Source of the DNA: Thermodesulfobacteriota bacterium
Lineage (GTDB): Bacteria > Desulfobacterota_D > UBA1144 > Nemesobacterales > JAZGCJ01
NCBI GenBank assembly: GCA_036476895.1
Contig: JAZGCJ010000341.1
Coordinates: forward strand, 18,114-82,113
Direction: 5' to 3'
Length of the DNA stretch: 64,000 bases
The notes under the pieces were generated by a model. That model did no database searches. It saw nothing but the letters and a program-made list of their open reading frames with translations, and was not told the DNA's origin. Within the stretch, counting starts at the first letter, position 1. Every line of letters begins with the position of its first letter. Made by a program: the position numbers and the translations under genes. Below, piece after piece: positions 373-59,006 of the stretch.

Positions 373-1107
373 TTATAAATCATCGTTTTTTTCCTCATTG
401 TAGTTGAATTTTCTTAGTTCAAACCAGGCTTTAGATACCTTCGAGCCAATCCCTACTATTTCCTCAATCTCCTTTTTAGAGGCCATGTAAAAAGCATCCC
501 AGGTTCCGAACTGTTCCATTATCAAATGTGCTTTGTTCGGCCCAACATGAGGCAGTGTGGCAATCATTTGTTGCAATCTAAACTTGGGATTGGCATTAAC
601 CTTAGGTGTAAGAATTTCAGGAAAGCGAATCATAGCCCGTTCTGAGTTAAGTATCTTGGCTGCTGCGGATATCGCCCGTGCACTGTCCCATTGATCTGCC
701 GTAGTATATACAGAGATAGTTCCCTGCACTCCATCTATACTCCGAGCTAAACAACATCTCATTAAGGCATTATGAGCCCGTTCAAAATTAAAACCATGAG
801 CTATGCACATGCTTTTCAAATTCCCTTCCATCATAAAGATAGAATGATAAAAGGAAGCACTTGAACGATAACATTGTTCATTTAACAGGCCAGAGTTAAG
901 AGATTCAAAAAAATCAGTTGCTTTTCTCTCAATCGATAGATCTATTCGTCTTATTATTCCTTCTTCAATACCTGGAACAATATATCCATCGTAGATGTGG
1001 TAATCGCCTATTTTAATAGTTCCTCGTTTGACTAAATGTCCCTGTTCTTTCAAAAGGTTCGGTACTTTAGATCGATACTCGGTTTTGTCAGCTAAGATTA
1101 TAGCCAT
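373..1107 (-). CDS. XPF/Mus81/Hef-family structure-specific endonuclease (ERCC4 nuclease domain plus C-terminal tandem helix-hairpin-helix)
   Basis: 244-aa ORF. ERCC4 signature KIGDYHIYDG...IDLSIERKATDFFESL (GDx(n)ERKxxD). C-terminal HhH pair LPHVGPNKAHLIMEQFG...IVGIGSKVSKAWFE. Confidence 0.75.
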   Translation of the reverse strand: MAIILADKTEYRSKVPNLLKEQGHLVKRGTIKIGDYHIYDGYIVPGIEEGIIRRIDLSIERKATDFFESLNSGLLNEQCYRSSASFYHSIFMMEGNLKSMCIAHGFNFERAHNALMRCCLARSIDGVQGTISVYTTADQWDSARAISAAAKILNSERAMIRFPEILTPKVNANPKFRLQQMIATLPHVGPNKAHLIMEQFGTWDAFYMASKKEIEEIVGIGSKVSKAWFELRKFNYNEEKNDDL

Positions 1108-1108
1108 T

Positions 1109-3487
1109 TTATTTCACACCCAGTGAATCAAATAACGAACTTTGTCCTAGGATCCTGTTCCAATGATATCCAGCCACCTGTAAAATTAATTCGATTGGAC
1201 TTTTAATTGTTCGTTCAATGATCTTTGTGTAATTGGGGATTATTTTGGGTAGTTTCTTCTCATCATAATAACAAAGGATATCAGTTGCTGGATAACCCTT
1301 TACTTCTTTTACGAATAACATTTTTATTCTATCTCCCTGTCCGAATTTCCAGCCAAAGTTCTTTGCGGAATAGATACAACCTCTCTTTTGAAGGTTGTTA
1401 CCTTTGTATTCATTAAGTTCTTTTCCCAGGTTCATAGCTATGCAAATCTCATCGTAGGAGTATTTACCATTTTTAATATCTAGAATCAGTTTTTGCACCC
1501 GTTTGACAAACGGTTCAATATTATCATTGAACACAGCTTTGAAGCATTCTGATTGAAGTTCTTTAGTAATCTTTGAAGAGTCACTCCGAACAGCTTCAAA
1601 GCCTTTAATTATAGTGTATGGAGTGTCTAATTCGATTCCATCCTTTTCTATAACCAACATTGCATATTTAGTTCGTGCCCCATCGTCTTTTCGTTTTCCT
1701 AGTCTTGATTTAGCTGGTGTGAATAGAACTTTTGAGGCATAGGATTCAAATTTAATTTCCCATAACGTTTCTACACCTTCATTCTCTTGATAAGCCTTTA
1801 AAGCTTTATTAAGGGCATCTTGAATCATTGAAGCCTCATCTCTACCGCATGCTACCATGATGGAATCGGTGTGGCCATAAATGACACGGTAACCTAGTTT
1901 CTCACTTTCTGTTTTGAGTAATCGTAAACCGTCCATGGCCTTGGCCACCATCTTAGCTACTTGTTTAGAACTATACAAACGAAAGTTAGGATAGGCACAG
2001 GCTCCATAAACTGCGTTTAACAAGAATTTGGCGTTGTCTCGATGAATTTTTTGGAGTTTGTACTCTTCTGTATCCGGCCCCACTGTTTCTAGGATTTCCT
2101 GTAGTTTGTCATCTTCCTTAGCTCGATTATCAATCAAGACTTTAGCAATCCAGTACAAGATCCCTTTTGGCTTTTTTAATCGTTCTTCAGTTGTTAATCC
2201 TTCAAACTCCGGACTGAAGTTATAAGCCATGATTGTTAAAGGAAAGAACCTAGAAAAATCAAACAAGGCTATATTATTGTAAATTCCCGGTGTTGGAGGG
2301 AAATTAATGGCTGCTGGATAAGTTTCATGTTTGCGTTTCACAGCAGTGGGTAAAATTACGTTCAAAGGAGAATTAAACTGTCCCTGTGCCACACGTAAGG
2401 CAATCGCATCTATAACGTGTGTGTTAGAAAGTGATTCAGCTATGTCATATTGGCCACAGGCATCCTTCCGCCCAGTAAAGGCTAAATCAATACCATATCT
2501 CTTGATTAGTTCCACGCAAATGAAAACATCAAAGCAATTATATAATATTAAGTCGTCATGGAGAGAACTGTCTTTATAATAGATTGGATCAAATTCGTCC
2601 ATGACAAGCTCATCCTTATCGAGTATTTCCTCTTCGATTGCTACAAACTTGAGTTTTTTGCCTAAATTTTTCTGTGCAACCTTCGGAAAAAATAGCATTA
2701 TATCGAAAGGCATCATTCCACGTAGATTAATTTTGATGTCTAAGAAGGCCGCTCTAGCCACCAGGTTGTCAATGTCAAAATCCACATTCCAACCGGCAAT
2801 TAAGGTTGGTTGCAATTGTTCTAAATACAATTTAATCGATAAGATCAAGTTAATTTCTTTTTCAAAGCGAATCACAAGCCAGTTCTCAATTTTATCTTTG
2901 TACTTGCGTTTTACAGCTTTTTGATCATAACCAGCTAAGAAGTAGGTAATGTAGGTTTCTAAGCGATTGTCAAAAACGGTTGCTGAGATAATTGTAAAAA
3001 CCGGGTTCTTAGGATTGGGTAATTCTTCTGCATCCATCTCTAGGTCGATTACAGAATACAATGGACGGGATGTATAGTCAATCGGAGCTAATTGATTATG
3101 ATTGATTTGTTTTTTTTCTATATTATTAAAAGTTCCCCCAATTGTAAAGCCTGATCGGATACCCATATCAATTATAAACCTGAGAACGTACCGAATATCA
3201 GCTTCCCATGTTCGTTCAAACAGTCTATCATCACGTAATTGCTTGACTTGCAGCGGATCATGAGTAAAAACACGTTTTAATTTATTGCCCCAAAGATCTA
3301 TAAACTCACCCTCTTCCACACGTTTGATTCGGGGATCTTCAGGAACCGTTTCATGTTCTAAAATGTAAAAGTAGGGTTCGAAGCCTGTGACCTCAAATTG
3401 ATATCGAGTCTTTAGATCTTGGCGGGCCCATACTACGATGCTTCGGTTATAATGGTTATATTGTCCCGTTTCAAATTGGTATGCCAT
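1109..3487 (-). CDS. polB: Family B DNA polymerase (3'-5' exonuclease + polymerase)
   Basis: 792 aa. Exo I VIDLEMD, Exo II YNCFDVFI, Pol motif A DFSRFFPLTIMAYN, motif B KFLLNAVYG, motif C IYGHTDSIMV. Confidence 0.9.
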   Translation of the reverse strand: MAYQFETGQYNHYNRSIVVWARQDLKTRYQFEVTGFEPYFYILEHETVPEDPRIKRVEEGEFIDLWGNKLKRVFTHDPLQVKQLRDDRLFERTWEADIRYVLRFIIDMGIRSGFTIGGTFNNIEKKQINHNQLAPIDYTSRPLYSVIDLEMDAEELPNPKNPVFTIISATVFDNRLETYITYFLAGYDQKAVKRKYKDKIENWLVIRFEKEINLILSIKLYLEQLQPTLIAGWNVDFDIDNLVARAAFLDIKINLRGMMPFDIMLFFPKVAQKNLGKKLKFVAIEEEILDKDELVMDEFDPIYYKDSSLHDDLILYNCFDVFICVELIKRYGIDLAFTGRKDACGQYDIAESLSNTHVIDAIALRVAQGQFNSPLNVILPTAVKRKHETYPAAINFPPTPGIYNNIALFDFSRFFPLTIMAYNFSPEFEGLTTEERLKKPKGILYWIAKVLIDNRAKEDDKLQEILETVGPDTEEYKLQKIHRDNAKFLLNAVYGACAYPNFRLYSSKQVAKMVAKAMDGLRLLKTESEKLGYRVIYGHTDSIMVACGRDEASMIQDALNKALKAYQENEGVETLWEIKFESYASKVLFTPAKSRLGKRKDDGARTKYAMLVIEKDGIELDTPYTIIKGFEAVRSDSSKITKELQSECFKAVFNDNIEPFVKRVQKLILDIKNGKYSYDEICIAMNLGKELNEYKGNNLQKRGCIYSAKNFGWKFGQGDRIKMLFVKEVKGYPATDILCYYDEKKLPKIIPNYTKIIERTIKSPIELILQVAGYHWNRILGQSSLFDSLGVK

Positions 3488-3496
3488 AAATCTGTA

Positions 3497-3853
3497 TCAC
3501 TCAGCAAAGATTAATGTCCTTAAGATATAGTATATTTCTTCTGGTAAAAACGGATATTTTTCACGTACAGCATTTCCATGATTTGATTCCATATCAATAA
3601 TCACCACATCAGACTTAGTTCTCTCAACTATTAAGGTTTGAGGGTAAAAAGTGAAATAATTAGTATATTTAGAACCAGAATATTTATATGATTCATTTTC
3701 CAAATCTTCAAGCCAAATCTCCCTTAGAACGGTTATATCTACAATGGTACTTCTAAATTCTGGTACTAATACAGAACAGTTAGTAATACATGGATCTTTT
3801 CTGCAATACTCACAGAACTGCTTTTCTGAAGTGACTTTCAATAGTGTCTGCAT
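3497..3853 (-). CDS. hypothetical Cys-rich protein (replication module)
   Basis: 118-aa ORF packed between polB and primase on the same strand. CxxC pair near the N-terminus. Confidence 0.4.
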   Translation of the reverse strand: MQTLLKVTSEKQFCEYCRKDPCITNCSVLVPEFRSTIVDITVLREIWLEDLENESYKYSGSKYTNYFTFYPQTLIVERTKSDVVIIDMESNHGNAVREKYPFLPEEIYYILRTLIFAE

Positions 3854-3990
3854 CTCACAAAATAATCATTGATTATATAGAGTTCTAATCTCCCATTCTT
3901 GATTTAATTCACATTCTGAAGAACAAAACAGTATATTTTCTGAAAATTCTATTGGTTTAAAGCAATATTTACATTTTTGTGTTATTTTTT

Positions 3991-4995
3991 TTAATAATGT
4001 CTGCACCCCGGAAAGTGAATGTTATATTTCATTAAGGTGGTATTCTTCATTGGCTTTTTCCCCTCAAGGCTTTTCAAGTGCTTTCGGGTGATGTCCTCAT
4101 CCCAATCAAACCAACCTATCTTACGGAATAGGCTTACAATTTGTTCAAGCCCAAAACTAGCAAAGAGTTCTAAGGCAGCGGCTACCCTGACCATATGCCT
4201 GGGATTCCAGCGTACAATGTGATTCAGGATACATGGTCTAATATATTGACCTAATAACAAACCTACCGGAACAGGAACCACTACTTCTCCTTCATCTTCA
4301 AAATTATCGCTTATTTGTCCTCTATAAATTTTCTTTGGTCGGTCTGGGAAAACCTTTTCAGGCTCAATGTGGTCAAACTCTTCAAAGTCTGGAAGGGTAC
4401 AATTTTCATAATCATAGTATTTAGGTTTATTTAATAGACCTTTGATTTGGCTTTCGTTGAGCTTATGAAAGTCAGGTGGTAAGTATGTGCAATATTTTAC
4501 GTTTTTTGGGGGTCGGCTAGAAGCAGGGATGCGTGTCATTTGTCTGATATCCCCAATCACACTGGTATCTACTTCTTTAGGTAATTTTTTAAGTACTAAG
4601 TTGATTAGACCCAATGCAGCCCGTTCCAGTGTTTTTTTTCGTTCCTGTTCGTCATCGATAACAGTCTTTTTAAATCTCACATACAGATGATACCCTTTTT
4701 TTCCCGATGCCACAGGAATAACACAAAATCCATAATCTATCCATGTTGTGTATAGGTATTTTGCCAGCAAGAAAGAACGTCCAAGATCAAGATCAAAAAA
4801 GACCTTATCAATGGTTTTGTTGTTCCCAAAGACCCCAATAAGTAAATTATGCATTCCTAGATTAGACTCAAAAAATAAATTTAATTCCTGTCGGCTCTTT
4901 ACCACCCTTCGTTGTGGAATCCCAACGTCCCGAGGACTAGTTGGTGTTACAGGAAATAAGCTATGAGTAATGGTGTGAAGTGCCACAATACTCAC
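3991..4995 (-). CDS. Archaeo-eukaryotic primase (AEP / PrimPol-like)
   Basis: AEP motif I VFFDLDL, motif II SGKKGYHLYV, motif III GDIRQMTRIPASSRP. 334 aa. Confidence 0.75.
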   Translation of the reverse strand: MSIVALHTITHSLFPVTPTSPRDVGIPQRRVVKSRQELNLFFESNLGMHNLLIGVFGNNKTIDKVFFDLDLGRSFLLAKYLYTTWIDYGFCVIPVASGKKGYHLYVRFKKTVIDDEQERKKTLERAALGLINLVLKKLPKEVDTSVIGDIRQMTRIPASSRPPKNVKYCTYLPPDFHKLNESQIKGLLNKPKYYDYENCTLPDFEEFDHIEPEKVFPDRPKKIYRGQISDNFEDEGEVVVPVPVGLLLGQYIRPCILNHIVRWNPRHMVRVAAALELFASFGLEQIVSLFRKIGWFDWDEDITRKHLKSLEGKKPMKNTTLMKYNIHFPGCRHY

Positions 4996-5915
4996 TCCAC
5001 GTTGGAGGGTTCTTCTGGTTCATCCTCTTCTTGTTCTGCAGTGTTTTCCATTGGAGCCATGAGGAAAGTAAATTTGGATTTTTCCGACTCAAAAATAACT
5101 CTAACAGCCCCTTCGTGATTATAGTGTAATTTTACATTATTTTGTAAATCTAGTTTTGTTAGATGTTCTAAATTTTCCAGGTCATAAGTAGATGCAATTG
5201 TTTTTTCTAAGCCATTCAAAGAAATGGATTCAATCTCATTAACCTCGTTTCCTTTTAGTCTTACCTTCACATCCGCTGCAACCGAACTTTCTGAACCACT
5301 AAGCAAACTAAAATTAACTTTTTTATCATCCAAAGTTTCTATGTGAATGTATCTTGTAGATTCATCTCCTACGTGGAGATCTTCTAATATTGTCTTGTAT
5401 CCTCCTCTTGTAAAGATAAGTTCACAATTCATTTCTTTTGTTAGGGCTACATTGGCCAATTTTTGTGTATGTTTGTAATCTATAGAATCTGAAGTTTCAC
5501 TATGCAATCTTAATCTGTAAGTTCGACTTCTTGAGGAATTAATGGATTGTATAGAGAGAGTTGCTCTTGAATCACCAGATGAGGCTTTTATTGTAACAAT
5601 GTCATCCGTTTGAGCTTTGGCTAAAATATCTTTGAGATCTTTTAAGTCTAACCAAAGAACAATATCTTCATCTACCTTTAAATCTGAAAACGCATCAGCT
5701 TCAAAGCTAAATTGGAAGAACATGGCTCCTGAACTTTCCATTGTGACACAGACACATCCCTGTTCTGAAAAGGCAAAGGGTTGTGTTCCACCTACAAAAG
5801 AGAGCAATCTTTCGACATAATTTTTTAATTCTTTTACTGTTCCGTTTTTAAATGTTGCTAACATAGTTTTTTCCTCATTGATTTTTATATTTTGTACTTC
5901 TGGAGTATTTCCCAT
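4992..5915 (-). CDS. PCNA-like sliding clamp
   Basis: 307 aa, two-domain size. C-terminus KFTFLMAPMENTAEQEEDEPEE resembles the PCNA C-terminus (..YYLAPKIEDEE). Operonic with primase and ATPase. Confidence 0.5.
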   Translation of the reverse strand: MGNTPEVQNIKINEEKTMLATFKNGTVKELKNYVERLLSFVGGTQPFAFSEQGCVCVTMESSGAMFFQFSFEADAFSDLKVDEDIVLWLDLKDLKDILAKAQTDDIVTIKASSGDSRATLSIQSINSSRSRTYRLRLHSETSDSIDYKHTQKLANVALTKEMNCELIFTRGGYKTILEDLHVGDESTRYIHIETLDDKKVNFSLLSGSESSVAADVKVRLKGNEVNEIESISLNGLEKTIASTYDLENLEHLTKLDLQNNVKLHYNHEGAVRVIFESEKSKFTFLMAPMENTAEQEEDEPEEPSNVE

Positions 5916-7195
5916 CCTCTAGGTGATTGATTATCGGGTGTTGTGATATCAACCGTCTTTCCGTTTTTGTAACCCCGTTTCATGGATTCTGTGTAAACAT
6001 AATATTTATTTTCATTTTCGCTTTCTTCATAGAAAACTTCGACAAGGTTTTGAGTGTTCTTTTCAATGGCATCCTTCCATCGGGGCTTCTTTGTCTTTTC
6101 ACTTTTCCCAAATCGTTTGATTGTTTCTTCAATAAATGGATAAGTAGTATAAATCACGCCTTGCTTAGCTACGGCATAACTTTTGGCATGGAGCTGTTTT
6201 AAAAACATATTCCGTGTTTTCCAGTATGCAAACTCGCTAAACCCTTCTGACATTTTCAAATTATGATAATACCGCATAGCGTTTTCGGCATATTCCATAT
6301 ATACTTCGACATTATCCAAAATAACCCGATCAACACCACCATTCTTTTTGACATCGTTCATGACCTCATTCACATATCCCATAATGCGATTGCTACTTTC
6401 AAGGAAAGTTATTGGATCATCAAAGTCAGCTAAACTTGTCACATCAACAATTTTAATGCGAGGGTCACAATTAAACTGCTGTTCCCACACAATAGATGAT
6501 GTTTCATCAAATTGAACCACAACCAATTCGCCAGGGAACGACATAGCAAGTGAAGTTTTGCCAGAGCCCTTACTCCCATAGATTGTCCAAACATCACCTT
6601 TAGGAACATCTTCTGGGGTCATATACTTAATTGGAGGAACATCAGTTACTATGGCCTTGGCAAAGGGTGGAGTTTTGACTGCTTTTGTTGCCCTGCGTGA
6701 GGGAGGTTTTTCTGTAGGAGATTCTATGACTTCAGGTTCATCAGATTGTTGAGGCTTCTTTTTTACTTTCTTTTTTGTGGACTTCGGTTGAACTACTGTA
6801 TTTTCTAAGAAAGAATTAACCTCTTTTTCGTTGGTTGTTGTTTTCATTGGTTTTTTCTTTGTTGAGGTCGCTTTTGCAGCTTCAGTTTCTATGTCCTGAG
6901 TAACCAACATGATAGCAGCTTTCCTTGAGATTGCACCGTTGGATTCATCAATTTTCATCTCAATTAGTTTATTTATTGTATCAGCTTTATCGGGGCCAAT
7001 GACAGAGGTTAATTTATTTAGTAATTCATCCTCTTGCATTGGGTCTTTCTTTTTGACCTTCTTAGGTTCTTTCTTAGTTGGTTTTTTTCGTGGCTTCTCA
7101 GGTTCCTTGGGAGGCTCCTTTTGTGGTTCCTGGTCTTTATCCTCTTCAAAGAACTCGTTTATAACATTACCATACTTTTTCCGACTATCACTCAT
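5885..7195 (-). CDS. AAA_24/Sak4-like RecA-fold ATPase with Lys/Glu-rich N-terminal extension
   Basis: Walker A WTIYGSKGSGKTSLAMSF, Walker B-like VVVQFDE. About 200-aa low-complexity K/E/P-rich N-terminus. Confidence 0.5.
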   Translation of the reverse strand: MSDSRKKYGNVINEFFEEDKDQEPQKEPPKEPEKPRKKPTKKEPKKVKKKDPMQEDELLNKLTSVIGPDKADTINKLIEMKIDESNGAISRKAAIMLVTQDIETEAAKATSTKKKPMKTTTNEKEVNSFLENTVVQPKSTKKKVKKKPQQSDEPEVIESPTEKPPSRRATKAVKTPPFAKAIVTDVPPIKYMTPEDVPKGDVWTIYGSKGSGKTSLAMSFPGELVVVQFDETSSIVWEQQFNCDPRIKIVDVTSLADFDDPITFLESSNRIMGYVNEVMNDVKKNGGVDRVILDNVEVYMEYAENAMRYYHNLKMSEGFSEFAYWKTRNMFLKQLHAKSYAVAKQGVIYTTYPFIEETIKRFGKSEKTKKPRWKDAIEKNTQNLVEVFYEESENENKYYVYTESMKRGYKNGKTVDITTPDNQSPRGWEILQKYKI

Positions 7196-8142
7196 TCTTC
7201 TTCCTCCTCAGGGGGCGTGTAAATTGGATACACAAGATAGGCATTCATTACAGCCTGCTCCTCTCGTTCGGGGTACTGATCTGTGGCAGGCCGTTCCGGG
7301 GAAATGGATGTTGGACCATAAAAGTCAAGGTAAGATGTTTTTGGATACACCGCCATATCATGTGGGGTATATATAGTGAAATTCTTATCAGTGTATTCTC
7401 CGTCCTCGCTTACTTCCACTTTTCTTAGGTATGCAAGGTTACCATCTGACACCATATAAGTTCCAGATTTCTGTCCTGTTTCTCTATCTACTCTTTGAAA
7501 AACCCGCATTACAGTTGCTCGAATGTGGAACCAGTCACTTTTCACGGCCCATTCTCCATCTAGTTCGGAGATATACAAATAGTCATCATCATCATCGGTA
7601 TCCATGGCCTTATCTAAAGAGGGCAATCGGGTAATATTTAATTTTTTGATAACCTCTTTTATTCCGCCATTGACTTGGGTTGGTTTTTCCCACTTCATCC
7701 GGTCATCCAGGAACATTCCCTTATCCGAACTATTAACTAAGATGTCATATTTCATTCCTAGTGACATCTTTTCAAGTCGCTTATGACTCTTCTTACCCTT
7801 GGTTCTAATTTCTTGAATGTTCCGACTTCTCCCACTTGTCTGAGTATAAAAAATTGTGCTCCAGTCAGAGCGTTCCTCAGTCTTCCCAATCATTATCCCC
7901 GAAACGGTGTCCGGCAACCCCCGAGCTGCCTTGGAATCGATATGCTTCTCAAAAAGTGTAGTAACAGTATGGGAATGTAATTCTTCCCTACTTTCAAAGA
8001 CATCTTCTAAATCATCGAATAGATCCTTATACTCTTTTAGAAGTGTTTTAAAATGAATTTCATCGGGTTTACCATCTCCCCTGCTCAATTTCTGAGCAAT
8101 GAGATCTAATTTTTCAACTGAGTCATCTGGTATGTTATCCAT
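7192..8142 (-). CDS. hypothetical protein with acidic C-terminal tail (possible ssDNA-binding protein)
   Basis: 316 aa ending ...YTPPEEEEE. Sits in the replication operon. The SSB call is inferred only from the acidic tail and the context. Confidence 0.3.
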   Translation of the reverse strand: MDNIPDDSVEKLDLIAQKLSRGDGKPDEIHFKTLLKEYKDLFDDLEDVFESREELHSHTVTTLFEKHIDSKAARGLPDTVSGIMIGKTEERSDWSTIFYTQTSGRSRNIQEIRTKGKKSHKRLEKMSLGMKYDILVNSSDKGMFLDDRMKWEKPTQVNGGIKEVIKKLNITRLPSLDKAMDTDDDDDYLYISELDGEWAVKSDWFHIRATVMRVFQRVDRETGQKSGTYMVSDGNLAYLRKVEVSEDGEYTDKNFTIYTPHDMAVYPKTSYLDFYGPTSISPERPATDQYPEREEQAVMNAYLVYPIYTPPEEEEE

Positions 8143-8149
8143 TATATAT

Positions 8150-8314
8150 TCACGTCTCTTTTGGCCAATATTCCAAATGATCGGGAAATTTCTTGACTAC
8201 GAGTTTATTCCCAGGAGTGAGCTTATATTTTCGGGCCCAATCTACAGGGACCGTTACTCTAAAGCTATTCTTCCCTGAACTTGTCACAGAAACCTCTGTT
8301 TCACCATAGCTCAT
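8150..8314 (-). CDS. AbrB/SpoVT-like (swapped-hairpin) small DNA-binding regulator
   Basis: Unlisted 54-aa ORF MSYGETEVSVTSSGKNSFRVTVPVDWARKYKLTPGNKLVVKKF..., AbrB/MazE-like pattern (tVPkeiRekl.l.pGd.l.v). It is the first gene of the minus-strand replication operon, next to the divergent promoter region. Confidence 0.4.
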   Translation of the reverse strand: MSYGETEVSVTSSGKNSFRVTVPVDWARKYKLTPGNKLVVKKFPDHLEYWPKET

Positions 8315-8525
8315 ATTTTATTCCTCTTCAAACTGCATTGATTACACATACAGTTAATTTGGTTTATTTGGTTCACTAAAAGGTAGATTAGCTTTTTCAA
8401 TTTGCCTTTAAAAATGTACAGGGTAACCTAAAACTGAACCTGTCAGCAGTTTTTAGAAAATCTTTTTTAAGTGAATGCATTGACAATCCATTCAAATTAG
8501 TTTTTTTGTTTGATATGGTGTTATT

Positions 8526-10032: not shown

Positions 10033-10170
10033 GATAATCTCCTCGAGATTTCAATAAGTACATTATTGTTTCGAGACTTTATAAGTCTGACCAATTTGAT
10101 ATCAATGCATTGACGGAAGATACAAAAGTATTTAAAGTCTGGAATGTAATATATTACTTGTGAACAAATA

Positions 10171-24374: not shown

Positions 24375-24813
24375 TGAATTTAGAACCTTTTTTTATACTA
24401 AGAAATGTTAATGTAAATAATTCGGTGGGGATATATAATGTAGGGAAGTCTCAACTCCTTACCTCTCAAATCCCAAGAGAGTGAATCCTCTACGCCAATG
24501 TTAGCCAAGGTTTTGATACCAGCAGCACGGTCCTTACCCTTAGAACTGTTTAACCACTGATCGCAGAGTCCCGGACTTGAGGAGCATCCTGGAGTGCCTA
24601 TATATTCTTGGTAACGAAGTCCCATCAAGTATTTGTATAGAACAAATACATGGTGACTGAGGCTAATCAATCGGGCTCGGTTTTCTAAAAACATAGTTTT
24701 TTATTCCAAGCCCCTGAGTTTTTAGCTCAAGGGTTATTGACTAAAGATTTTGGTTTGCCGAATTATTTCGCTCACTACATAGATTTTTTTCAAGAATTTA
24801 AGTAATTTTTGTT

Positions 24814-27484: not shown

Positions 27485-29062
27485 TCACTTAATATTGTTC
27501 TTTACAATGCGGTCAATTTCGGCCACTGTAAGCGAATCAATGGCCCGTCTAAAAAAAGGTCGTGGTAATGTTCCGTTTTTTGCAATGGAAAAACGGATTG
27601 CGTTGGCAATCTTTAGAGCTTCTGCATCTCTTGTTTTTCTTTTCCTACCAGTTCCTGTAGATACTTGAACTCGAATCTTTCGCTTAACCCATGCCAGGAT
27701 TGGGTCTAATGGAGGCATGTGAGGTCGTGTGTTCCCACAAAAGGTTGGCTTCCCATTTCGTCTTACATAAAAGTTTCCATTTGAAACAGATAAACAGTAA
27801 ACCTTTCCTGAGTATGGGTAAAGTGAAACAGTTCTTGCATCCACCCACAAACTATTTGATTTCTTAATATATACAGTATAAGAAGGAAAATTACGTTTAT
27901 ACATTTTATTGTTAATACTGAATTCTCCTCTCAAGTCCCTAACTCCTATATAACTCCAAAAACCACACTTTAAGGCCAGTTCTTGAACATCACTGGCTAG
28001 ACCAATACTACTTGTATGGTACCTAGGATAAGAGCCAGAACTTGTTACAGCAGTACTTCCATCACCCACTAATAGTGCTTCAAGTAAACCCTCGGAAAAA
28101 GTTTTATTGTATTGGAGAAATTCCCGAGGAATTCGCTTAAAAGGAGCAAGTTTGTTTAATCCCTTTTTAGCTAACCAACTAACTAATTGAACATTTGAAA
28201 TTCTGAATTTTTTCCCATCGTAAATATATTTAAAAGGTAGTTTATCTAACACATTTTGGATATACAAGCAACCGTCTTGTTTTGTTTGTGATATATTTAA
28301 TCTATAATTTTTGTTAGGATATCGCTTGTCATTTTCAATATTACCTTCACTAATGATCAGTCCCAAAAAGTTTGCAAAGTTCAACGGATTAATTTTGAGT
28401 GTTGGTTTTTCTAAATCTATATACTCTTTCTGTTTCCCTAAGAAATGTTGTTCCATATATTTGTTAATTTCCACATCGATTAGAGAATTGCCTTTCCAGC
28501 TTCCAACAGTGGGTATGTATCCTCTGTATCCTTTTAAGATTGATTTTGCAGGTCTGAAATGTAGATTCTTTTTGTTCCTGTTATACATTAACATACGATG
28601 ATCTGGTGTGACCAACAGATCCAAATACCTATTTTTAAAATGTAATAAATCTCCTGACCAATCTCTCTCTGTTATTTTTTTAGGGTAGCTATATTCTATT
28701 TTACCACTCCTCACATTTAAAGTGCAGACAATATCATTAATTGTACATTTTGTAATTGATTTCCATCCATGTGTTGTTAGAACCTCTGTATCAGCAGAAT
28801 AACATCCAAACTCGATGAACGGGGCATGAAAAGCATCGAAGATAACTTTTTTCTTTAATCTTTTTCGTTCAACTCTTCCAGAACGAGCTAGTGTTCCTCT
28901 ATCAAAAGCACCTTCGCCTATTGCAGGTGAGAAATTAGCGGACCGTAAGTTTTCATCTGCTTCGCTTAGGACAAAATCAGCCATGTCATCTAAGGCTCGG
29001 TCAAGTTGATCTAAGAAATCATCGTAGATTTTTTCAACTGTATCCCCCAAAAGTTTGACCAT
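27485..29062 (-). CDS. HK97 gp10-family virion protein interrupted by an intein with LAGLIDADG homing endonuclease
   Basis: N-extein ends FHAPFIEFG. Intein starts CYSADTEVLTTHGW (block A), has block B LLVTPDHRML and LAGLIDADG-like FLGLIISEGNI and LLEALLVGDGST, and ends VYCLSVSNGNFYVRRNGKPTFCGN. The +1 residue is T, followed by RPHMPPLDPILAW (gp10-family ...YVEFGT..MPA.P.L pattern). Confidence 0.65.
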   Translation of the reverse strand: MVKLLGDTVEKIYDDFLDQLDRALDDMADFVLSEADENLRSANFSPAIGEGAFDRGTLARSGRVERKRLKKKVIFDAFHAPFIEFGCYSADTEVLTTHGWKSITKCTINDIVCTLNVRSGKIEYSYPKKITERDWSGDLLHFKNRYLDLLVTPDHRMLMYNRNKKNLHFRPAKSILKGYRGYIPTVGSWKGNSLIDVEINKYMEQHFLGKQKEYIDLEKPTLKINPLNFANFLGLIISEGNIENDKRYPNKNYRLNISQTKQDGCLYIQNVLDKLPFKYIYDGKKFRISNVQLVSWLAKKGLNKLAPFKRIPREFLQYNKTFSEGLLEALLVGDGSTAVTSSGSYPRYHTSSIGLASDVQELALKCGFWSYIGVRDLRGEFSINNKMYKRNFPSYTVYIKKSNSLWVDARTVSLYPYSGKVYCLSVSNGNFYVRRNGKPTFCGNTRPHMPPLDPILAWVKRKIRVQVSTGTGRKRKTRDAEALKIANAIRFSIAKNGTLPRPFFRRAIDSLTVAEIDRIVKNNIK

Positions 29063-35487: not shown

Positions 35488-35551
35488 TTTCATTAACGGA
35501 AGATACAAAAGTATTTAAATTCTGGAATGAATGAATTACTTGTGAACCACA
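35488..35551 (+). promoter_or_regulatory. conserved promoter/leader cassette (copy)
   Basis: ttaACGGAAGATACAAAAGTATTTAAAttctggaatgaatgaattaCTTGTGAACcacaATG. Nearly identical to 10114-10173. Confidence 0.55.
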
Positions 35552-39124: not shown

Positions 39125-39176
39125 TTGTCAATGCACTTATAAGTACTTGATACCAATATATTAATTGTGAACCAAA
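39125..39176 (+). promoter_or_regulatory. promoter cassette variant (AATGCACT box, cttataagta TATA-like, attgtgaacc)
   Basis: tcAATGCACTTATAAGTActtgataccaatatattaattGTGAACcaaaATG. Confidence 0.45.
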
Positions 39177-40343: not shown

Positions 40344-43300
40344 TTACCTCACTGTAGCATCAAATGTATAATCTTTAGTTTTCTTAGCAGTAAATGTATA
40401 TTGAACAGATTTAGTAGCAGTAAATGTATATTGAACAGATTTAGTAGCATCGAATGTGAACGCAATTGTCTTTGTTGGTTCACAAGTAAATTTAATTGTT
40501 TTGGTAGCATCAAAAGTTAAGTCTCCAATGGCAACAATCTCCACTTCTCGAGAAAGTGTCCTGGAGGCTTGTGCATCTTGCTGCACAACACGACTGACAG
40601 ATCGGCTCGCCCGAGCCTCGTTCTGGATTTCTCTGAATAGGCTAATTGAGGCACGTGCTTCGTTTTGGATGGCCCTCGAAACCGATCTACTGGCCCTCGT
40701 TTCCTGTTTCACAATTCTAGTCAAAGATCGACTATTACGTGCCTGAGCTTGTGTCATACGGCTAATTGTTTGACTAACTCTGGTTTCCTGTTGAATCTCC
40801 CTTGAAACTGTCCTTGATTTACGGTCTTCCATCTCTGGAGTTCTGGTTATGCTGCGGGATGCTCTTGCTTCCTGCTGAACCTGTCGAGATACAGTAACAC
40901 TATTACGTGCCTCTTTCTGCACTTCTCGTAACAAGGATCTGGAAGCCCTTGCAGTCAGGATAACTTCACGACTTATTATTCTTGAATCTCGTGCATCTTG
41001 TTGAACCTGTCTTTGGACGGATCTTGATGCCTTAGCTTCCTGTTGTGCAGTTCGGGTTAAACTCCTTGAGGCTAATGCTACAATAATAACCTCTCTGGAT
41101 ACTGTTCTTGATGCCCTTGCATCTTGTTGAACTATTCGGTGAACAGATCGTGAAGCTCGTGCTTCTTGTTGTACAATTCTTGTCAGACTTCTACTAGCAC
41201 GAGCCTCGGACTGTACCACTCTATGAACTGAACGAGAATCCCTTGCAGTTCCAATAACCTCTCTGCTTATTGTTCGGCTAGCTCTGGCCTCCTGTTGAAT
41301 TACTCTCGAAACAGACCGACTGGCTCTTGCCTCACTCTGTACAACTCTATGTAGCGATCTTGACGCTCGTGCTTCTTGGAGTACATTTCGTGTGACGCTT
41401 CTACTCGCACGATCATCCTGTTGAACGACTCGGTGAACTGATCGAGATGCCTGTGCATCCTGTTGGATTTCCCTGGATATGGTTCGACTATTACGTGCCT
41501 CTTGTTCGACTATTCTGTGAACTGAACGACTAACTCTGGCCTCAGCCTGGGTTTTCCTTGATATCGTCCTACTCGCACGGGCCTCCTGTTTTACTTCTCT
41601 TGTAACACTTCTTGAGGCTCTGGCTTCCTGTTTTACAACTCTTGTGACTGATCTGCTAGCCCTTGATTCCTGTTGAACCTGTCTGCTCACTGATCTGCTA
41701 GCCCTTGCCTCAGACTGTACTATTCGATGAATTGACTTACTAACTCGGGTCTCTTGCTTTACAACCCTGTGAACAGACCTGCTAGCACGGGCTTCCGCTG
41801 ATCCTGCACTTCTCGTCACAGATATGCTCTGTCTTGCTTCTTGTTGAACTTCTCGGCTTATGGTACGTGAGGCCCTGGCAGAATTAACAGTTTCTCGTGA
41901 CACAGTTCTTGATACACGAGCTTCTTGTTCCACTATTCGGTGAACAGACCTGCTAATTCGGCCCTCATCTTTGATGGTACGAGCTAGTCCCCTACTAACC
42001 AAAACAAGACATTCTGGTAATCCAAGCGTGTGAAAGGTCGAAGGACTATTTTGATTATTATATTCAGATAAAATCCATCCCGCAGTATGGACTATATCAG
42101 AAATCCGAATTTCATCCATAATTGCATTAACGGCTTGACTAGCATGAGATACAAGAAACGGATCTGAATTAGCGAGACTACTATCTACTTCGTCCATATT
42201 ATCATTATTATCCTCAACTCCATTTTCATAAATCCTTAATAAAGCTGGTATTCTATCAACTTGACCAACAAAATAAATCCATATCCCTGTTGTTGGTATT
42301 GGAACTCTTGATGTATCCTGAGTATCTCCATCAGCATCTTCTACCTCAAACTTCATTCCGTTAACAAGAGAAGTAAGATTAAAAGAATATCCAGCATTAC
42401 CAGCAAATTCTCCTTTGTCAATAGGTCGTCTTGGCCCCCCTCCCGAATTAAAATTAATCCACATAGAAACAGTTAAATCTAAAGCAAAGTCTAAATGCCC
42501 ATCCCCGGGATCTCCCATACTAACTTGCCCATTAAATCCATCAAAATTATAAGCATCCCCAATTTTACCAGTCGATCCTTGTGTTGTACCTCCAGATATA
42601 ATCCCGTCTGTATTATGAATAGTAGAATCTTTAGCATTACCAGATGCTTCTTGGAAGTGCCAAACTCCTTTATAATTGGAATTCCAAGTTCCTGGTTTGT
42701 TTTGTTGGTCAGTTGCCCCAGAATTGTTATAATACATATAGATGTCTGTATCTATGGAACCGCTAATGAAAGGAAGGTTTACCCAAGCAATCAACTCTCC
42801 TGTGCCAGTGACATATAGCACACGTTCGTGATTAAGTTTTGTCACACCATCGGAGGATGTAAAGAGAATATCAAATCCATCTGACCGTGCATCATCCGAT
42901 AGGTTAGCATCGCTAGTTAATCTAATGAGTACGGGAAAATCAACTAAATTCTCGGCAATCTTAGTAGAGTCGATGGTGACTTTCTTTCGGCAAATCCAAT
43001 CATTATCAAACCATTGAACTGCAGGTGCTACCGTCCTTGACAAGGGACGACTAGCTCTGGTCACTTGTTCTATAGTCCTTGTTAAAGATCTGGATGCACG
43101 TGTCTCTTGCTGTACTTGTCTGGATAGAGATCTGCTCACACGAGCTTGATCGAGTACTTTTCTTGTAATTGATCTACTAGCCCGTGCAGTAAAAACAACT
43201 TCCCTGGATATTGTCCTACTAACTCTGGTATCCTTTTGAACAATCCGGTGAACACTTCTTGAGGCTTGAGCATCCTGTTCTACTTCTCTGGATAGGTGTC

Positions 43301-53071: not shown

Positions 53072-53353
53072 TTACTCGGTCTCGGATGCTTCACTCGCCC
53101 GTAAGGGCCTAGTAACGCTCCCCGAAGGGAGTCTCTCCTCGCCAATGTTATCATGGCTTGTTCGGCCTAACACACTGTTCGCTACCCCGGCAAACTGTTT
53201 AATGTTAGACGACATTGCTGCAGACTGGAGAAGCATCCACAGGTGTCCTAACCATAATAACGGAGTCCATACAATCACTTGCATATCATTCCAAGGCTGG
53301 TCAAGCAGTTGTTTGGGGAGTTCTTGACCGTTGATATCATTCCTTACCAACAA
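53072..53353 (-). CDS. hypothetical small protein
   Basis: 93 aa. Driven by the conserved promoter cassette at 53354-53410. Confidence 0.35.
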   Translation of the reverse strand: MLVRNDINGQELPKQLLDQPWNDMQVIVWTPLLWLGHLWMLLQSAAMSSNIKQFAGVANSVLGRTSHDNIGEERLPSGSVTRPLRASEASETE

Positions 53354-58907: not shown

Positions 58908-59006
58908 TTGTTAAGAAAATGCTTAATAAGTGTTTTGTTTGTTAATGGTCCATACCAAAAGGTTAAACTTTTAAAGTCTCGAGTGGCAGAAGAGACATGT
59001 GAACCA

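What the first reader, a model, noticed from the sequence alone, without database searches (positions are those of the whole stretch)
373..8314. Archaeal/eukaryal-type replisome module in a tailed virus: PolB, AEP primase, PCNA-like clamp, XPF/Hef nuclease, Sak4-like ATPase and an AbrB-like regulator
All eight ORFs are co-directional and tightly packed. Several overlap by 4 nt, which suggests translational coupling. PolB and the AEP primase carry complete catalytic motifs. The ERCC4 + HhH2 nuclease architecture is the archaeal Hef / eukaryotic XPF-Mus81 type, not a bacterial type. A PCNA-like clamp, as opposed to a β-clamp, again points to an archaeal host. Together with the TATA-box promoters and the long (possibly intron-containing) tRNA, I read this as an archaeal caudovirus. 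Its virion module is HK97-like and bacterial-phage-like. A family that typically encodes its own XPF/Hef nuclease would be of particular interest for replication-fork or Holliday-junction processing.
Basis: partly seen in the sequence, partly recalled or inferred. Interest (0 to 1): 0.55.

Follow-up and report, generated by a model that had tools for sequence, protein, structure and literature searches.

The report
Archaeal tailed-virus DNA replication gene cassette
This stretch is the DNA replication and recombination gene cluster of an uncultivated tailed virus that almost certainly infects an archaeon; it is a real and well-conserved module, but of a kind already described for large archaeal viruses.

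Summary
Window 373-8314 carries eight co-directional, tightly packed minus-strand genes. Profile searches confirm family B polymerase, short XPF nuclease (ERCC4 + HhH2), PCNA clamp, archaeo-eukaryotic primase, Sak4-like AAA_24 ATPase and, weakly, an AbrB/SpoVT-like regulator. One unnamed ORF (7192-8142) proved to be a tandem OB-fold, RPA-like single-strand-binding protein. The cassette continues past the window's left end with a Cas4-like nuclease and an RFC-type clamp loader.

The same gene order, XPF included, recurs in two other 85-95 kb metagenomic contigs. Part of it recurs in the haloarchaeal virus HVTV-1 (Druskaviridae).

An archaeal host is well supported:
- Capsid, primase, polymerase and clamp loader find only or best archaeal tailed viruses among isolates.
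- A TATA-like box recurs 22-23 nt upstream of a conserved start-proximal element.
- There is no excess of sigma-70-like sites.

The NCBI label "Thermodesulfobacteriota MAG" is probably a binning error.

Virus-encoded ERCC4/XPF nucleases are already reported as near-universal in magroviruses and present in Asgard viruses, so this is a new member of a known kind. Two oddities:
- The three clade polymerases checked all carry His for the first Asp of motif C.
- Two IscB-less HEARO/omega-type RNAs lie elsewhere in the window.

The parts
8150..8314 (-). 54-aa AbrB/SpoVT-type (swapped-hairpin) small DNA-binding protein, first gene of the cassette and the likely regulator.
   Evidence: Pfam MazE_antitoxin/SpoVT-AbrB E 1.3e-4, 22.3 bits, below the cut-off of 24.7. 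Small ORFs with the same 'vtlP.dW.rk' motif sit at the head of the cassette in L035 and L039; the L039 ORF also hits PF04014.
7192..8142 (-). 316-aa single-strand-DNA-binding protein: N-terminal helical domain, two OB folds (about 80-145 and 204-308) and an acidic C-terminal tail (EEEEE).
5885..7195 (-). 436-aa Sak4-like AAA_24 (RecA-fold) ATPase with a K/E/P-rich low-complexity N-terminal region of about 180 aa. Candidate annealing/recombination mediator.
   Evidence: Pfam AAA_24 E 1.5e-8, above cut-off; PHROG 124 'Sak4-like ssDNA annealing protein' E 2.7e-11. Walker A GSKGSGKT is read from the sequence. Orthologues: 49% identity in L002, 42% in L035. HVTV-1 gp103 is also AAA_24.
4992..5915 (-). 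307-aa PCNA-family sliding clamp with an acidic C-terminal tail.
   Evidence: Pfam PCNA_N E 2.1e-9, above cut-off. NCBIfam archaeal sliding clamp PRK01115 and TIGR00590 match nearly full length, E about 1e-11. phmmer against PDB PCNAs covers residues 46-288. A profile of three orthologues matches eukaryotic and archaeal PCNA structures at E 5e-11.
3991..4995 (-). 334-aa archaeo-eukaryotic primase (PrimPol-like) with a conserved C-terminal helical domain. GTG start overlaps the PCNA stop by 4 nt.
   Evidence: PF01896 E 8e-4 and LigD_Prim-Pol E 0.01, both below cut-off. The same sub-threshold hits occur independently in the two orthologues. Residues D68-x-D70, G101, D143, D149 and R155 are invariant in the three-way alignment; the motif II His is present in the window and L002 sequences. 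hhalign 92.7%, E 4e-7 to a haloarchaeal virus (HRTV-27) protein annotated as DNA primase. In 50,697 phage records it hits only Druskaviridae.
3497..3853 (-). 118-aa ORF of unknown function with an N-terminal Cys cluster (CxxCx4CxxxC). Not conserved at this position in the relatives.
   Evidence: No family hit. L002 has no gene here and L035 has an unrelated 85-aa ORF. It is preceded by TATATAA at 3873-3879.
1109..3487 (-). 792-aa family B DNA polymerase with 3'-5' exonuclease domain, a motif C variant (YGHTDS) and a C-terminal PIP-like box (QSSLFDSL).
   Evidence: Pfam DNA_pol_B and DNA_pol_B_exo1 above cut-off; PHROG 262 E 1e-56. Exo I-III and motifs A and B are invariant in an 11-sequence alignment. 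His replaces the first motif C Asp in all three clade members checked. The C-terminal QxSLxx[SL]L is conserved in the three. Best isolate hits are haloarchaeal tailed viruses at 22-25% identity.
373..1107 (-). 244-aa short XPF-type structure-specific endonuclease: ERCC4 nuclease domain plus a C-terminal (HhH)2 domain, no helicase domain.
   Evidence: Pfam ERCC4 and HHH_2 above cut-off. Full-length match to Aeropyrum pernix XPF 2bhn/2bgw, E 5e-10. NCBIfam Hef nuclease C-terminal part E 9e-18 and archaeal Xpf 3'-flap endonuclease E 2e-12. GDY...ERKxxD is invariant in three orthologues. The same position downstream of PolB is kept in L002 and L035.
8315..8525 (.). 211-nt divergent intergenic region upstream of the cassette. 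It holds a candidate promoter: TTTAAA at 8407-8412 and the recurrent GTGAACCA element at 8369-8376 (minus strand), then a GAGGA ribosome-binding site before the ATG at 8314.
   Evidence: Sequence read. GTGAACMA occurs 16 times against 4.9 expected. The spacing here is 30 nt, not the canonical 22-23 nt, so the assignment is tentative.
3854..3990 (.). 137-nt internal gap with a TATA-like box (TATATAA, 3873-3879, minus strand) 19 nt before the ATG of ORF 3497-3853. Possible internal promoter for the polymerase-XPF half of the cassette.
   Evidence: Sequence read. This single site is not statistically tested and is also compatible with a -10-like hexamer.

Best explanation
Window 373-8314 is the core of the replication-recombination cassette of an uncultivated archaeal tailed virus (Caudoviricetes). 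The genome is about 88 kb. By capsid similarity it falls with the HVTV-1-type capsids, a clade that also includes Druskaviridae and marine archaeal viruses.

**Shown:**
- The cassette encodes, in transcription order: an AbrB-like regulator, an RPA-like tandem-OB SSB, a Sak4-like RecA-fold ATPase, a PCNA clamp, an AEP primase, a small Cys-rich ORF, a family B polymerase and a short XPF nuclease.
- Just outside the window follow a Cas4/RecB-like PD-(D/E)XK nuclease and an RFC-type clamp loader.
- The order is conserved in two related contigs.

**Inferred mechanism:**
1. The AEP primes synthesis.
2. The virus RFC loads the virus PCNA. PolB docks on it through its C-terminal PIP-like box for processive synthesis.
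3. The SSB coats single strands.
4. The SSB/Sak4 pair and the Cas4-like exonuclease drive annealing-based, recombination-dependent replication that yields branched concatemers.
5. The XPF nuclease trims 3' flaps and cuts fork or nicked-junction structures, so that DNA can be packaged by the large terminase.

No replicative helicase was found among the ORFs screened in the window or in the 9 kb seen beyond it. One is either recruited from the host (MCM) or encoded in the unseen 15 kb of the contig.

Transcription uses the host's archaeal machinery from TATA-type promoters. The 4-nt overlaps suggest translational coupling.
For: **Identity of each gene.**. SSB.

**Extension beyond the window.** PDDEXK_1/Cas4-like nuclease and a 624-aa RFC-like protein (RFC small subunit PRK00440, E 1e-75).

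**Conserved synteny.**
- L002 (85.6 kb JGI contig) and L035 (95.5 kb ENA contig).
- HVTV-1 shares the order gp104 (SSB) - gp103 (AAA_24) - ... - gp100 (primase) ... RFC, RecB, PolB.

**Virus.** Portal, protease, HK97-type capsid protein, tail tube and TerL lie in the same window.

**Archaeal host.**
- The capsid protein hits only archaeal tailed viruses among 50,697 records: Druskaviridae at 33-35% identity and a Methanofastidiosa virus.
- The primase hits only Druskaviridae.
- The RFC best hits are Druskaviridae.
- The PolB best isolate hits are haloarchaeal viruses, and its fourth-best database hit is a haloarchaeal chromosomal PolB.
- The motif T[TA]TAAA-N22-23-GTGAAC occurs 5 times against 0.08 expected. 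Each lies 2-4 nt before the ATG of a gene with no Shine-Dalgarno motif, while 38 of the 87 genes overall (including many operon-internal ones) carry a GAGG/AGGA-type site.
- Sigma-70-like sites are not enriched: 22 against 31.7 expected.
- The literature places the HVTV-1 capsid clade among viruses of MGII, Thaumarchaeota and Thermoplasmata (PMC8651126).
Against: - NCBI labels the source assembly 'Thermodesulfobacteriota bacterium'.
- The few named capsid relatives carry mixed MAG labels: Flavobacteriaceae, TA06, Bacillota, 'archaeon' and Halobacteria.
- The best isolate matches of TerL are bacterial phages at 25% identity.
- No CRISPR-spacer or tRNA evidence for a host was obtained.
- The XPF has no recognisable PIP box, so PCNA coupling of the nuclease is only an analogy with crenarchaeal XPF.
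- No helicase, ligase or dedicated Holliday-junction resolvase was identified.
- No activity was tested. The His in PolB motif C could in principle lower polymerase activity.
Confidence: 0.85

Rival explanations
1. It is a bacteriophage of a bacterium (for example the Thermodesulfobacteriota named in the NCBI record) that has acquired archaeal-type replication genes.
For: - NCBI organism label.
- Capsid relatives binned in Flavobacteriaceae, TA06 and Bacillota MAGs.
- TerL is closest to Bacteroides and roseophage terminases among isolates.
- Shine-Dalgarno motifs are used.
Against: - The bin labels span four unrelated bacterial phyla plus two archaeal labels for proteins 32-43% identical. That pattern fits mis-binned viral contigs.
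- The contig's serial number (JAZHCF01 6853949) suggests that the WGS record holds millions of contigs. This is an inference from the accession only.
- All isolate hits for capsid, primase and RFC, and the best PolB hits, are archaeal viruses.
- The promoter architecture is TATA-type at archaeal spacing, with no sigma-70 signal.
- PCNA, RFC and short XPF all score best against archaeal models.
Confidence: 0.07
2. The region is a piece of archaeal chromosome, or a decayed provirus, in which the replication genes are cellular and not part of a functional virus.
For: PCNA, RFC, XPF, PolB and AEP are all normal archaeal cell genes. The fourth-best PolB hit is chromosomal.
Against: - The 64-kb window holds a full virion module and otherwise mostly ORFans, with no housekeeping genes seen.
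- Contig sizes of 85-95 kb recur for the relatives.
- All genes are far diverged from cellular versions and score below NCBIfam equivalog cut-offs.
- No integrase was seen.
Confidence: 0.03
3. The XPF and the neighbouring Cas4-like nuclease act mainly in DNA repair or counter-defence, not in replication or debranching. Possible roles are degrading host DNA or interfering with CRISPR adaptation.
For: - Published accounts propose a repair role for ERCC4 nucleases of Asgard viruses.
- They propose a counter-defence role for virus Cas4-like nucleases (PMC8651126).
- The XPF has no PIP box.
Against: The XPF sits at a fixed position directly downstream of PolB, between PolB and RFC, in all three contigs. 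That argues for co-expression with the replisome. The catalytic GDxnERKxxxD motif is intact. The roles are not mutually exclusive.
Confidence: 0.15

Closest known systems
Druskaviridae (Thumleimavirales), e.g. Haloarcula vallismortis tailed virus 1 (HVTV-1), HCTV-1/5/16
   Same: - Closest isolates for the capsid protein (33-35% identity), the primase (the only hits) and RFC (33%).
- Distant PolB relatives (22-25% identity; the single best isolate hit is the hafunavirid HRTV-27).
- Shared gene order SSB (gp104, hhalign 99.3%) - AAA_24 (gp103) - ... - primase (gp100), with RFC, RecB/Cas4-like nuclease and PolB nearby.
   Different: - No XPF/ERCC4 gene is annotated in the 32-kb HVTV-1 stretch inspected, and tblastn with the XPF finds no hit in any phage record.
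- HVTV-1 gp101, at the clamp position, is not detectably a PCNA.
- HVTV-1 PolB has the canonical YGDTDS.
- The host and habitat of HVTV-1 are hypersaline.
- The preQ0 genes said to be present in all Druskaviridae (PMC8651126) were not seen among the window ORFs that were scanned.
- Identities are far below family level.
Magroviruses / Aoguangviridae (Magrovirales), tailed viruses of marine Poseidoniales
   Same: - 90-100 kb genomes, low G+C (31.5%; the two relatives here are about 30%), and separate replication and morphogenesis blocks.
- Near-complete replisome with PolB, AEP primase, PCNA and RFC.
- ERCC4 nuclease in almost all vOTUs.
- Stated to be distantly related to Druskaviridae (PMC10768690; PMC10160649).
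   Different: - Magroviruses are described with MCM helicase and ATP-dependent ligase, and YSH_150918 has a split PolB. None of these was seen here.
- No magrovirus sequence was available in the collections queried, so relatedness could not be measured.
Asgard archaeal viruses Fenrir, Nidhogg and Ratatoskr (Rambo et al.) and NMV1
   Same: Caudovirus-like structural genes, with PolB, RFC-like ATPases, AEP primase and XPF-like ERCC4 + HhH endonucleases.
   Different: No sequence comparison was possible. The XPF of this window finds no tblastn match in the phage/archaeal virus collection.
Crenarchaeal short XPF (Aeropyrum pernix, Sulfolobus) working with PCNA
   Same: Same two-domain architecture and catalytic motif, with a full-length alignment to 2bhn. 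A cognate PCNA is encoded 4 kb upstream.
   Different: The cellular enzymes carry a C-terminal PCNA-interaction motif (my own knowledge of the Sulfolobus and Aeropyrum work). None is recognisable in the three viral XPFs.
Phage SSB + Sak4 annealing pair (e.g. phage HK620; PHROG 124)
   Same: An AAA_24/Sak4-like ATPase gene lies directly after an SSB gene with an acidic tail, a pairing kept in every relative examined.
   Different: - The SSB here is a 316-aa tandem OB-fold protein of RPA type, not a bacterial homotetrameric SSB.
- The ATPase has a 180-aa low-complexity N-terminal extension.
- Annealing activity is untested.

Membership tests
Family B DNA polymerase | 3'-5' exonuclease motifs Exo I (DxE), Exo II (NxxxFD) and Exo III (YxxxD) | tested here: met
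   D148/E150, N234/F237/D238 and Y316/D320 are invariant in an 11-sequence alignment. Pfam DNA_pol_B_exo1 E 3.9e-11.
Family B DNA polymerase | Polymerase motif A (Dx2SLYPS) with catalytic Asp, and motif B (Kx3NSxYG) | tested here: met
   D410 and P416 (DFSRFFPL), and K487/N491/Y494/G495 (KFLLNAVYG). Pfam DNA_pol_B E 8.7e-18.
Family B DNA polymerase | Motif C YGDTDS with both aspartates | tested here: inconclusive
   T540 and D541 are invariant, but the first Asp is His: YGHTDS here, HGHTDG in L002 and QGHTDN in L035. Every other fetched PolB in which the motif was found has YGDTDS. Conservation across 38-42% identical proteins argues for a functional variant. Activity was not tested.
Archaeo-eukaryotic primase (AEP) superfamily | Motif I (DxD), motif II (sGxGxH) and motif III (hD...R.P) | tested here: met
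   FFDLD (D68, D70), SGKKGYHLY and VDTSVIGDIRQMTRIP. D68, D70, G101, D143, D149 and R155 are invariant across the window, L002 and HVTV-1 gp100; the motif II His is present in the window and L002 sequences. Motifs I and II align with the LigD PrimPol structure 2iru.
Archaeo-eukaryotic primase (AEP) superfamily | Significant profile match to an AEP family model | tested here: inconclusive
   PF01896 scores 20.3 bits against a cut-off of 26.8. Two orthologues give 23.4 and 23.0 bits. hhalign 92.7%, E 4e-7 to the haloarchaeal virus HRTV-27 protein annotated as primase, which itself has no Pfam hit. The single-sequence AF2 model was unusable, pLDDT 34.
PCNA sliding clamp | Full-length similarity to the two-domain PCNA protomer | tested here: met
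   PCNA_N 37.6 bits against a cut-off of 20.3. TIGR00590 and PRK01115 align over residues 22-289. A three-orthologue profile hits archaeal and eukaryotic PCNA chains at E 5e-11 to 1e-7 over nearly the whole length.
PCNA sliding clamp | Ring (trimer) formation and loading by RFC | not testable with these tools
   A cognate RFC-type clamp loader is encoded about 3 kb downstream of the XPF gene on the same contig. Oligomeric state is unknown.
XPF/ERCC4 structure-specific nuclease (archaeal short XPF) | ERCC4 catalytic signature GDxnERKxxxD | tested here: met
   G34-D35-Y36 ... E60-R61-K62-A-T-D65, invariant in three orthologues. Pfam ERCC4 31.5 bits against a cut-off of 24.
XPF/ERCC4 structure-specific nuclease (archaeal short XPF) | C-terminal tandem helix-hairpin-helix (HhH2) domain and no helicase domain | tested here: met
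   HHH_2 28.8 bits against a cut-off of 27, at residues 185-227. Residues 6-226 align with the whole of A. pernix XPF. At 244 aa there is no room for a Hef helicase.
XPF/ERCC4 structure-specific nuclease (archaeal short XPF) | C-terminal PCNA-interaction (PIP) motif, as in crenarchaeal XPF | tested here: not met
   No Qxx[LIVM]xx[aromatic/L]2-type motif in any of the three viral XPFs, and their C-termini are not conserved.
Sak4-like / AAA_24 RecA-fold ATPase | AAA_24 profile match with an intact Walker A | tested here: met
   AAA_24 35.2 bits against a cut-off of 27; PHROG 124 E 2.7e-11. GSKGSGKT is read.
Sak4-like / AAA_24 RecA-fold ATPase | SSB-stimulated single-strand annealing activity | not testable with these tools
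   Only the conserved SSB-AAA_24 gene pairing is shown.
RPA/SSB OB-fold single-strand-binding proteins | Nucleic-acid-binding OB fold(s) | tested here: met
AbrB/SpoVT swapped-hairpin regulators | Profile match to the SpoVT-AbrB domain | tested here: inconclusive
   22.3 bits against a cut-off of 24.7. An analogous ORF in L039 scores 22.2 bits.
Archaeal tailed viruses (Caudoviricetes, HVTV-1-type capsid clade) | HK97-type capsid protein, portal, protease, TerL and tail tube, with the capsid protein related to archaeal virus capsids | tested here: met
   Pfam hits. Capsid tblastn finds only Druskaviridae and a Methanofastidiosa virus.
Archaeal tailed viruses (Caudoviricetes, HVTV-1-type capsid clade) | Archaeal host | tested here: inconclusive
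   Indirect support is strong: promoter type and relatives. No CRISPR-spacer, tRNA or provirus link was obtained, and MAG labels are mixed.
Druskaviridae (family membership) | Family-level genome relatedness, and the preQ0/G+ pathway encoded by all members (PMC8651126) | tested here: not met
   Capsid only 33-35% identical, PolB 22-25%. No Que genes among the window ORFs scanned. Not every small ORF was scanned.
Magrovirales | Sequence relatedness to reference magroviruses | not testable with these tools
   The reference ON649702 is absent from the collections. The resemblance rests on published descriptions only.

The most novel reading that the evidence does not exclude
The window, L002 and L035 represent a new family-level lineage of archaeal tailed viruses from non-hypersaline habitats, a sister group to Druskaviridae and magroviruses. 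On this reading:
- The replicative PolB works with a His in place of the near-universal first Asp of motif C.
- A PIP-less XPF, not a canonical Holliday-junction resolvase, debranches replication intermediates.
- The window virus additionally expresses IscB-less HEARO/omega-type RNAs from its own promoters (these RNAs were found only in the window). They might borrow or jam a host IscB-type nuclease.
Probability: 0.25. Interest if true: 0.5.

Novelty: new member of a known kind. Interest (0 to 1): 0.3.

Why it matters
It adds a conserved 8-10 gene replication cassette to the catalogue of large archaeal viruses that replicate semi-autonomously. The cassette is found on three 85-95 kb contigs.

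- It assigns a function, an RPA-like SSB, to a protein family that is still 'hypothetical' even in the isolated virus HVTV-1 (gp104).
- It shows that an NCBI 'Thermodesulfobacteriota' record contains an archaeal virus.
- The His variant of polymerase motif C and the stand-alone HEARO RNAs are small, testable oddities.

None of this changes the current picture, because virus-encoded PolB/PCNA/RFC/AEP/ERCC4 sets are already described for magroviruses, haloviruses and Asgard viruses.

Tried and rejected
- **Word-indexed homologue search with the XPF.** It returned only the query itself, although a 33% identical orthologue exists in L002. That search was wasted.
- **tblastn against 50,697 phage records.** XPF, PCNA and Sak4 gave no hit.
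- **IMG/VR scan with a three-sequence PolB profile.** It found only distant PolBs (26% identity or less), none with detectable XPF, PCNA, AEP or SSB relatives.
- **GTDB genome scan with capsid proteins.** The first attempt failed for lack of a conserved stretch. The second gave four MAG contigs with mixed archaeal and bacterial labels, which is not decisive for the host.
- **Cluster look-up for names of ten capsid relatives.** No names were returned.
- **PDB profile searches.** Those for the SSB family and the Sak4 core found nothing meaningful.
- **Structure prediction of the primase.** The single-sequence model was unusable, pLDDT 34, so no fold search was run on it.
- **HVTV-1 gp101 as a PCNA.** The hhalign probability was 0.1%. 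Rejected.
- **Replication-origin repeats near the cassette.** Nothing convincing was found.
- **IscB or IshB next to the HEARO RNAs.** Flanking ORFs are 138-169 aa without HNH or RuvC domains. The window's stand-alone HNH protein lies 7 kb away and shows no PLMP motif.
- **Intron-tolerant tRNA search.** None found.
- **Paper search for the assembly accession.** Nothing found.
- **GTGAAC element.** I first read it as a pure initiator. It may instead, or also, be a partial GGUGA-type ribosome-binding site. L002 has TTATAAA-N24-GGTGA-N5-start. Either reading keeps the TATA box at archaeal distance.

Full report
**1. Observation**

The ORF listing shows eight minus-strand ORFs at exactly the coordinates given: 373-1107, 1109-3487, 3497-3853, 3991-4995, 4992-5915, 5885-7195, 7192-8142 and 8150-8314.
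- Two junctions overlap by 4 nt and one by 31 nt.
- The remaining gaps are 1, 7 and 9 nt, plus one 137-nt gap.
- NCBI's gene calls on the source contig are the same.

The window is the reverse complement of positions about 503-64502 of an 88,028-bp contig, JAZHCF016853949.1 of GCA_044345325.1. NCBI labels the assembly 'MAG: Thermodesulfobacteriota bacterium'.

**2. Identity of the genes**

- **XPF nuclease.** The 244-aa protein has ERCC4 and HHH_2 domains above the Pfam cut-offs. It aligns end to end with the short XPF of Aeropyrum pernix (2bhn, E 4.7e-10). It also matches NCBIfam's Hef nuclease C-terminal part (E 9e-18) and archaeal Xpf 3'-flap endonuclease (E 2e-12). The GDY...ERKxxD signature is invariant in three orthologues.
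- **PolB.** The 792-aa protein is a family B polymerase with Exo I-III and motifs A and B intact.
- **PCNA.** The 307-aa protein matches PCNA over nearly its full length. A profile of three orthologues hits archaeal and eukaryotic PCNA structures at E 5e-11.
- **Sak4-like ATPase.** The 436-aa protein is an AAA_24/Sak4-like ATPase.
- **Primase.** The assignment is weaker by thresholds: PF01896 scores 20.3 bits against a cut-off of 26.8.
  - Its two orthologues give the same sub-threshold hits independently.
  - The key residues of AEP motifs I and III, and G101 of motif II, are invariant.
  - hhalign links the family to a haloarchaeal virus (HRTV-27) protein annotated as DNA primase, with 92.7% probability and E 4e-7.
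- **AbrB-like regulator.** The label rests on a sub-threshold SpoVT/AbrB hit (22.3 against 24.7 bits) and on similar small ORFs at the head of the cassette in relatives.

**3.

ORF 7192-8142 (316 aa) has no family hit. An exhaustive HMMER scan found a 17-member family of about 300-aa proteins.
- The alignment shows an OB-fold-like pattern.
- An AlphaFold model built on it (pLDDT 74, pTM 0.64) has two beta-barrels.
- Foldseek against the PDB returns Pyrococcus abyssi RPA, HIN-200 tandem OB domains, Thermus/Deinococcus SSBs and RPA70, all at probability 1.00.
- The best viral structural match is a 347-aa protein.
- hhalign shows 99.3% probability of homology with HVTV-1 gp104, also 347 aa, which lies immediately upstream of HVTV-1's AAA_24 gene.

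With its acidic tail (EEEEE) and its fixed position before the Sak4-like gene, I read it as the virus's single-strand-binding protein.

**4. Extent and conservation of the module**

Beyond the window's left end the contig continues with the following genes:
- a DUF1540 ORF;
- a PDDEXK_1/Cas4-like nuclease;
- a 624-aa protein with two AAA+ stretches whose C-terminal half matches RFC small subunit (PRK00440, E 1e-75);
- a deoxynucleoside kinase, methyltransferases and an HNH protein.

Two other contigs carry the same cassette in the same order. They are Ga0452215_000449 (85.6 kb, L002) and ERZ27233560 k141_446702 (95.5 kb, L035). The order is SSB - AAA_24 - PCNA - AEP - PolB - small ORFs - XPF - RFC (the PDDEXK nuclease follows RFC in L002; L035 is cut inside the RFC gene).

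| Protein | Identity to window, L002 / L035 |
|---|---|
| SSB | 24% / 26% |
| AAA_24 (Sak4-like) | 49% / 42% |
| PCNA | no BLAST hit / 23% |
| AEP primase | 45% / 46% |
| PolB | 42% / 38% |
| XPF | 33% / 27% |

So all three members of this clade encode the XPF at the same place. IMG/VR held nothing closer than 26% PolB identity.

**5. Virus and host**

The window also holds a portal, a prohead protease, an HK97/SU10-type capsid protein, a tail tube and TerL.

Relatives among 50,697 phage and archaeal-virus records:
- The capsid protein hits only Druskaviridae (33-35% identity) and a Methanofastidiosa virus.
- The primase hits only Druskaviridae.
- The RFC is best matched by Druskaviridae.
- PolB is best matched by haloarchaeal tailed viruses. 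Its next database relative is a chromosomal haloarchaeal PolB.
- Liu et al. (PMC8651126) place the HVTV-1 capsid clade among viruses of MGII, Thaumarchaeota and Thermoplasmata.

Promoter evidence from the sequence itself:
- The arrangement T[TA]TAAA-N22-23-GTGAAC(C/A)A-N2-4-ATG occurs five times, against 0.08 expected in dinucleotide shuffles.
- GTGAACMA occurs 16 times against 4.9 expected.
- These sites precede genes that lack a Shine-Dalgarno motif, while 38 of the 87 genes overall carry a GAGG/AGGA-type site.
- Sigma-70-like sites are fewer than expected: 22 against 31.7.

A TATA-like box about 25 nt upstream of a start-proximal element, with near-leaderless first genes, is the archaeal pattern (established knowledge of archaeal promoters). 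The GTGAAC element may partly be a GGUGA-type ribosome site. That does not change the TATA spacing.

Points against an archaeal host:
- the NCBI organism label;
- the mixed MAG labels of capsid relatives: Flavobacteriaceae, TA06, Bacillota, 'archaeon' and Halobacteria;
- TerL being closest to bacterial phages among isolates.

I regard the labels as binning noise, because they span unrelated phyla for closely related proteins. I obtained no spacer or tRNA evidence, and no tRNA exists in the window.

**6. How it probably works**

Shown: the parts list and its conserved order.

Inferred:
1. The AEP primes.
2. RFC loads PCNA.
3. PolB binds PCNA through its C-terminal box. The box reads QSSLFDSL here, QNSLLSLL in L002 and QTSLKDLL in L035. 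The Gln is nearly invariant across 11 PolBs.
4. The SSB coats single strands.
5. SSB, Sak4 and the Cas4-like exonuclease support annealing-driven, recombination-dependent replication.
6. XPF removes 3' flaps and cuts branched intermediates before packaging.

The XPF has no PIP box, so PCNA dependence, known for crenarchaeal XPF, is not supported here. No helicase was found among the ORFs screened in the window, nor in the L001 gene table beyond it.

**7. Oddities**

- **PolB motif C.** All three clade PolBs checked have His for the first Asp of motif C: YGHTDS, HGHTDG and QGHTDN. Every other PolB fetched in which the motif was found has YGDTDS. Conservation at 38-42% overall identity implies that the variant is functional.
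- **HEARO RNAs.** Elsewhere in the window two full-length HEARO (IscB omega-RNA) matches score 109 and 108 bits against a cut-off of 83.
  - Neither has an IscB-sized ORF nearby.
  - The second sits behind a copy of the virus's own promoter.

**8. Comparison with what is known, and verdict**

Semi-autonomous replisomes (PolB, AEP, PCNA, RFC) are described for large haloarchaeal viruses, magroviruses/Aoguangviridae and Asgard viruses. ERCC4-type nucleases are reported in almost all magrovirus vOTUs, and XPF-like ERCC4 + HhH proteins in Asgard viruses.

The finding is therefore real and correctly read in the main. It is a new member, possibly a new family-level lineage, of a known kind. The interest is modest.

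Noticed in passing
window 24481-24741 (-) and 53127-53328 (-): Two full-length Rfam HEARO (RF02033, IscB omega-RNA) matches score 109 and 108 bits against a cut-off of 83. Neither has an IscB- or IsrB-sized ORF next to it; flanking ORFs are 138-169 aa without HNH or RuvC domains. The two copies share only the conserved core. The second is preceded by a copy of the virus's recurrent TTTAAA promoter, so it looks like a separately transcribed RNA.
   Followed up: partly
window 10131-10167 (+), 35514-35549 (+), 58970-59006 (+), 55911-55875 (-), 55014-54978 (-); looser copies at 39167, 51934, 54285 and 8369: A recurrent promoter-like unit, (A-rich)-T[TA]TAAA-N22-23-GTGAAC(C/A)A-N2-4-ATG, occurs 5 times against 0.08 expected. 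Three copies share about 50 nt of near-identical upstream sequence. It is probably a temporal class of virus promoters read by archaeal TBP/TFB.
   Followed up: yes
window 27485-29062 (-): A 525-aa ORF has an HK97-gp10-like N-terminus interrupted by intein-splicing and LAGLIDADG homing-endonuclease domains (Pfam). This is an intein inside a head-tail connector/tail-completion gene.
   Followed up: no
L001 15163-17037 (source contig, about 1.7 kb beyond window position 1): A 624-aa protein has two AAA+ stretches: a Rad17-like P-loop at residues 31-61 and a full RFC-small-subunit match at 306-588. It looks like a fusion or tandem of two clamp-loader subunits in one polypeptide.
   Followed up: partly
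whole window; NCBI record GCA_044345325.1: The contig is deposited as 'MAG: Thermodesulfobacteriota bacterium', but its content is an archaeal-type tailed virus. The contig serial number (6,853,949) suggests a record with millions of contigs, so the organism label is unlikely to be meaningful.
   Followed up: partly
The related contig L035 carries three tRNA genes (4508-4584, 4621-4696, 6198-6272) and an MJ1673-family ORF.
   Followed up: yes
window 40344-44672 (-): A 1442-aa ORF has a DUF2341 domain (E 1.2e-7) between the virion and terminase regions. It is probably a tail fibre or adhesin.
   Followed up: no
L027 (ENA ERZ584659 NODE_6634), 627-4985: The third-closest PolB (31% identity, canonical YGDTDS) sits next to QueF, radical-SAM and TGT genes. 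This is the 7-deazaguanine DNA-modification set typical of Druskaviridae. No such genes were seen in the window ORFs scanned.
   Followed up: no
window 60758-61198 (-) and L001 20191-20793: Stand-alone HNH endonuclease ORFs of 146 and 200 aa. The second is inserted between two N6/N4 DNA methyltransferase genes.
   Followed up: partly
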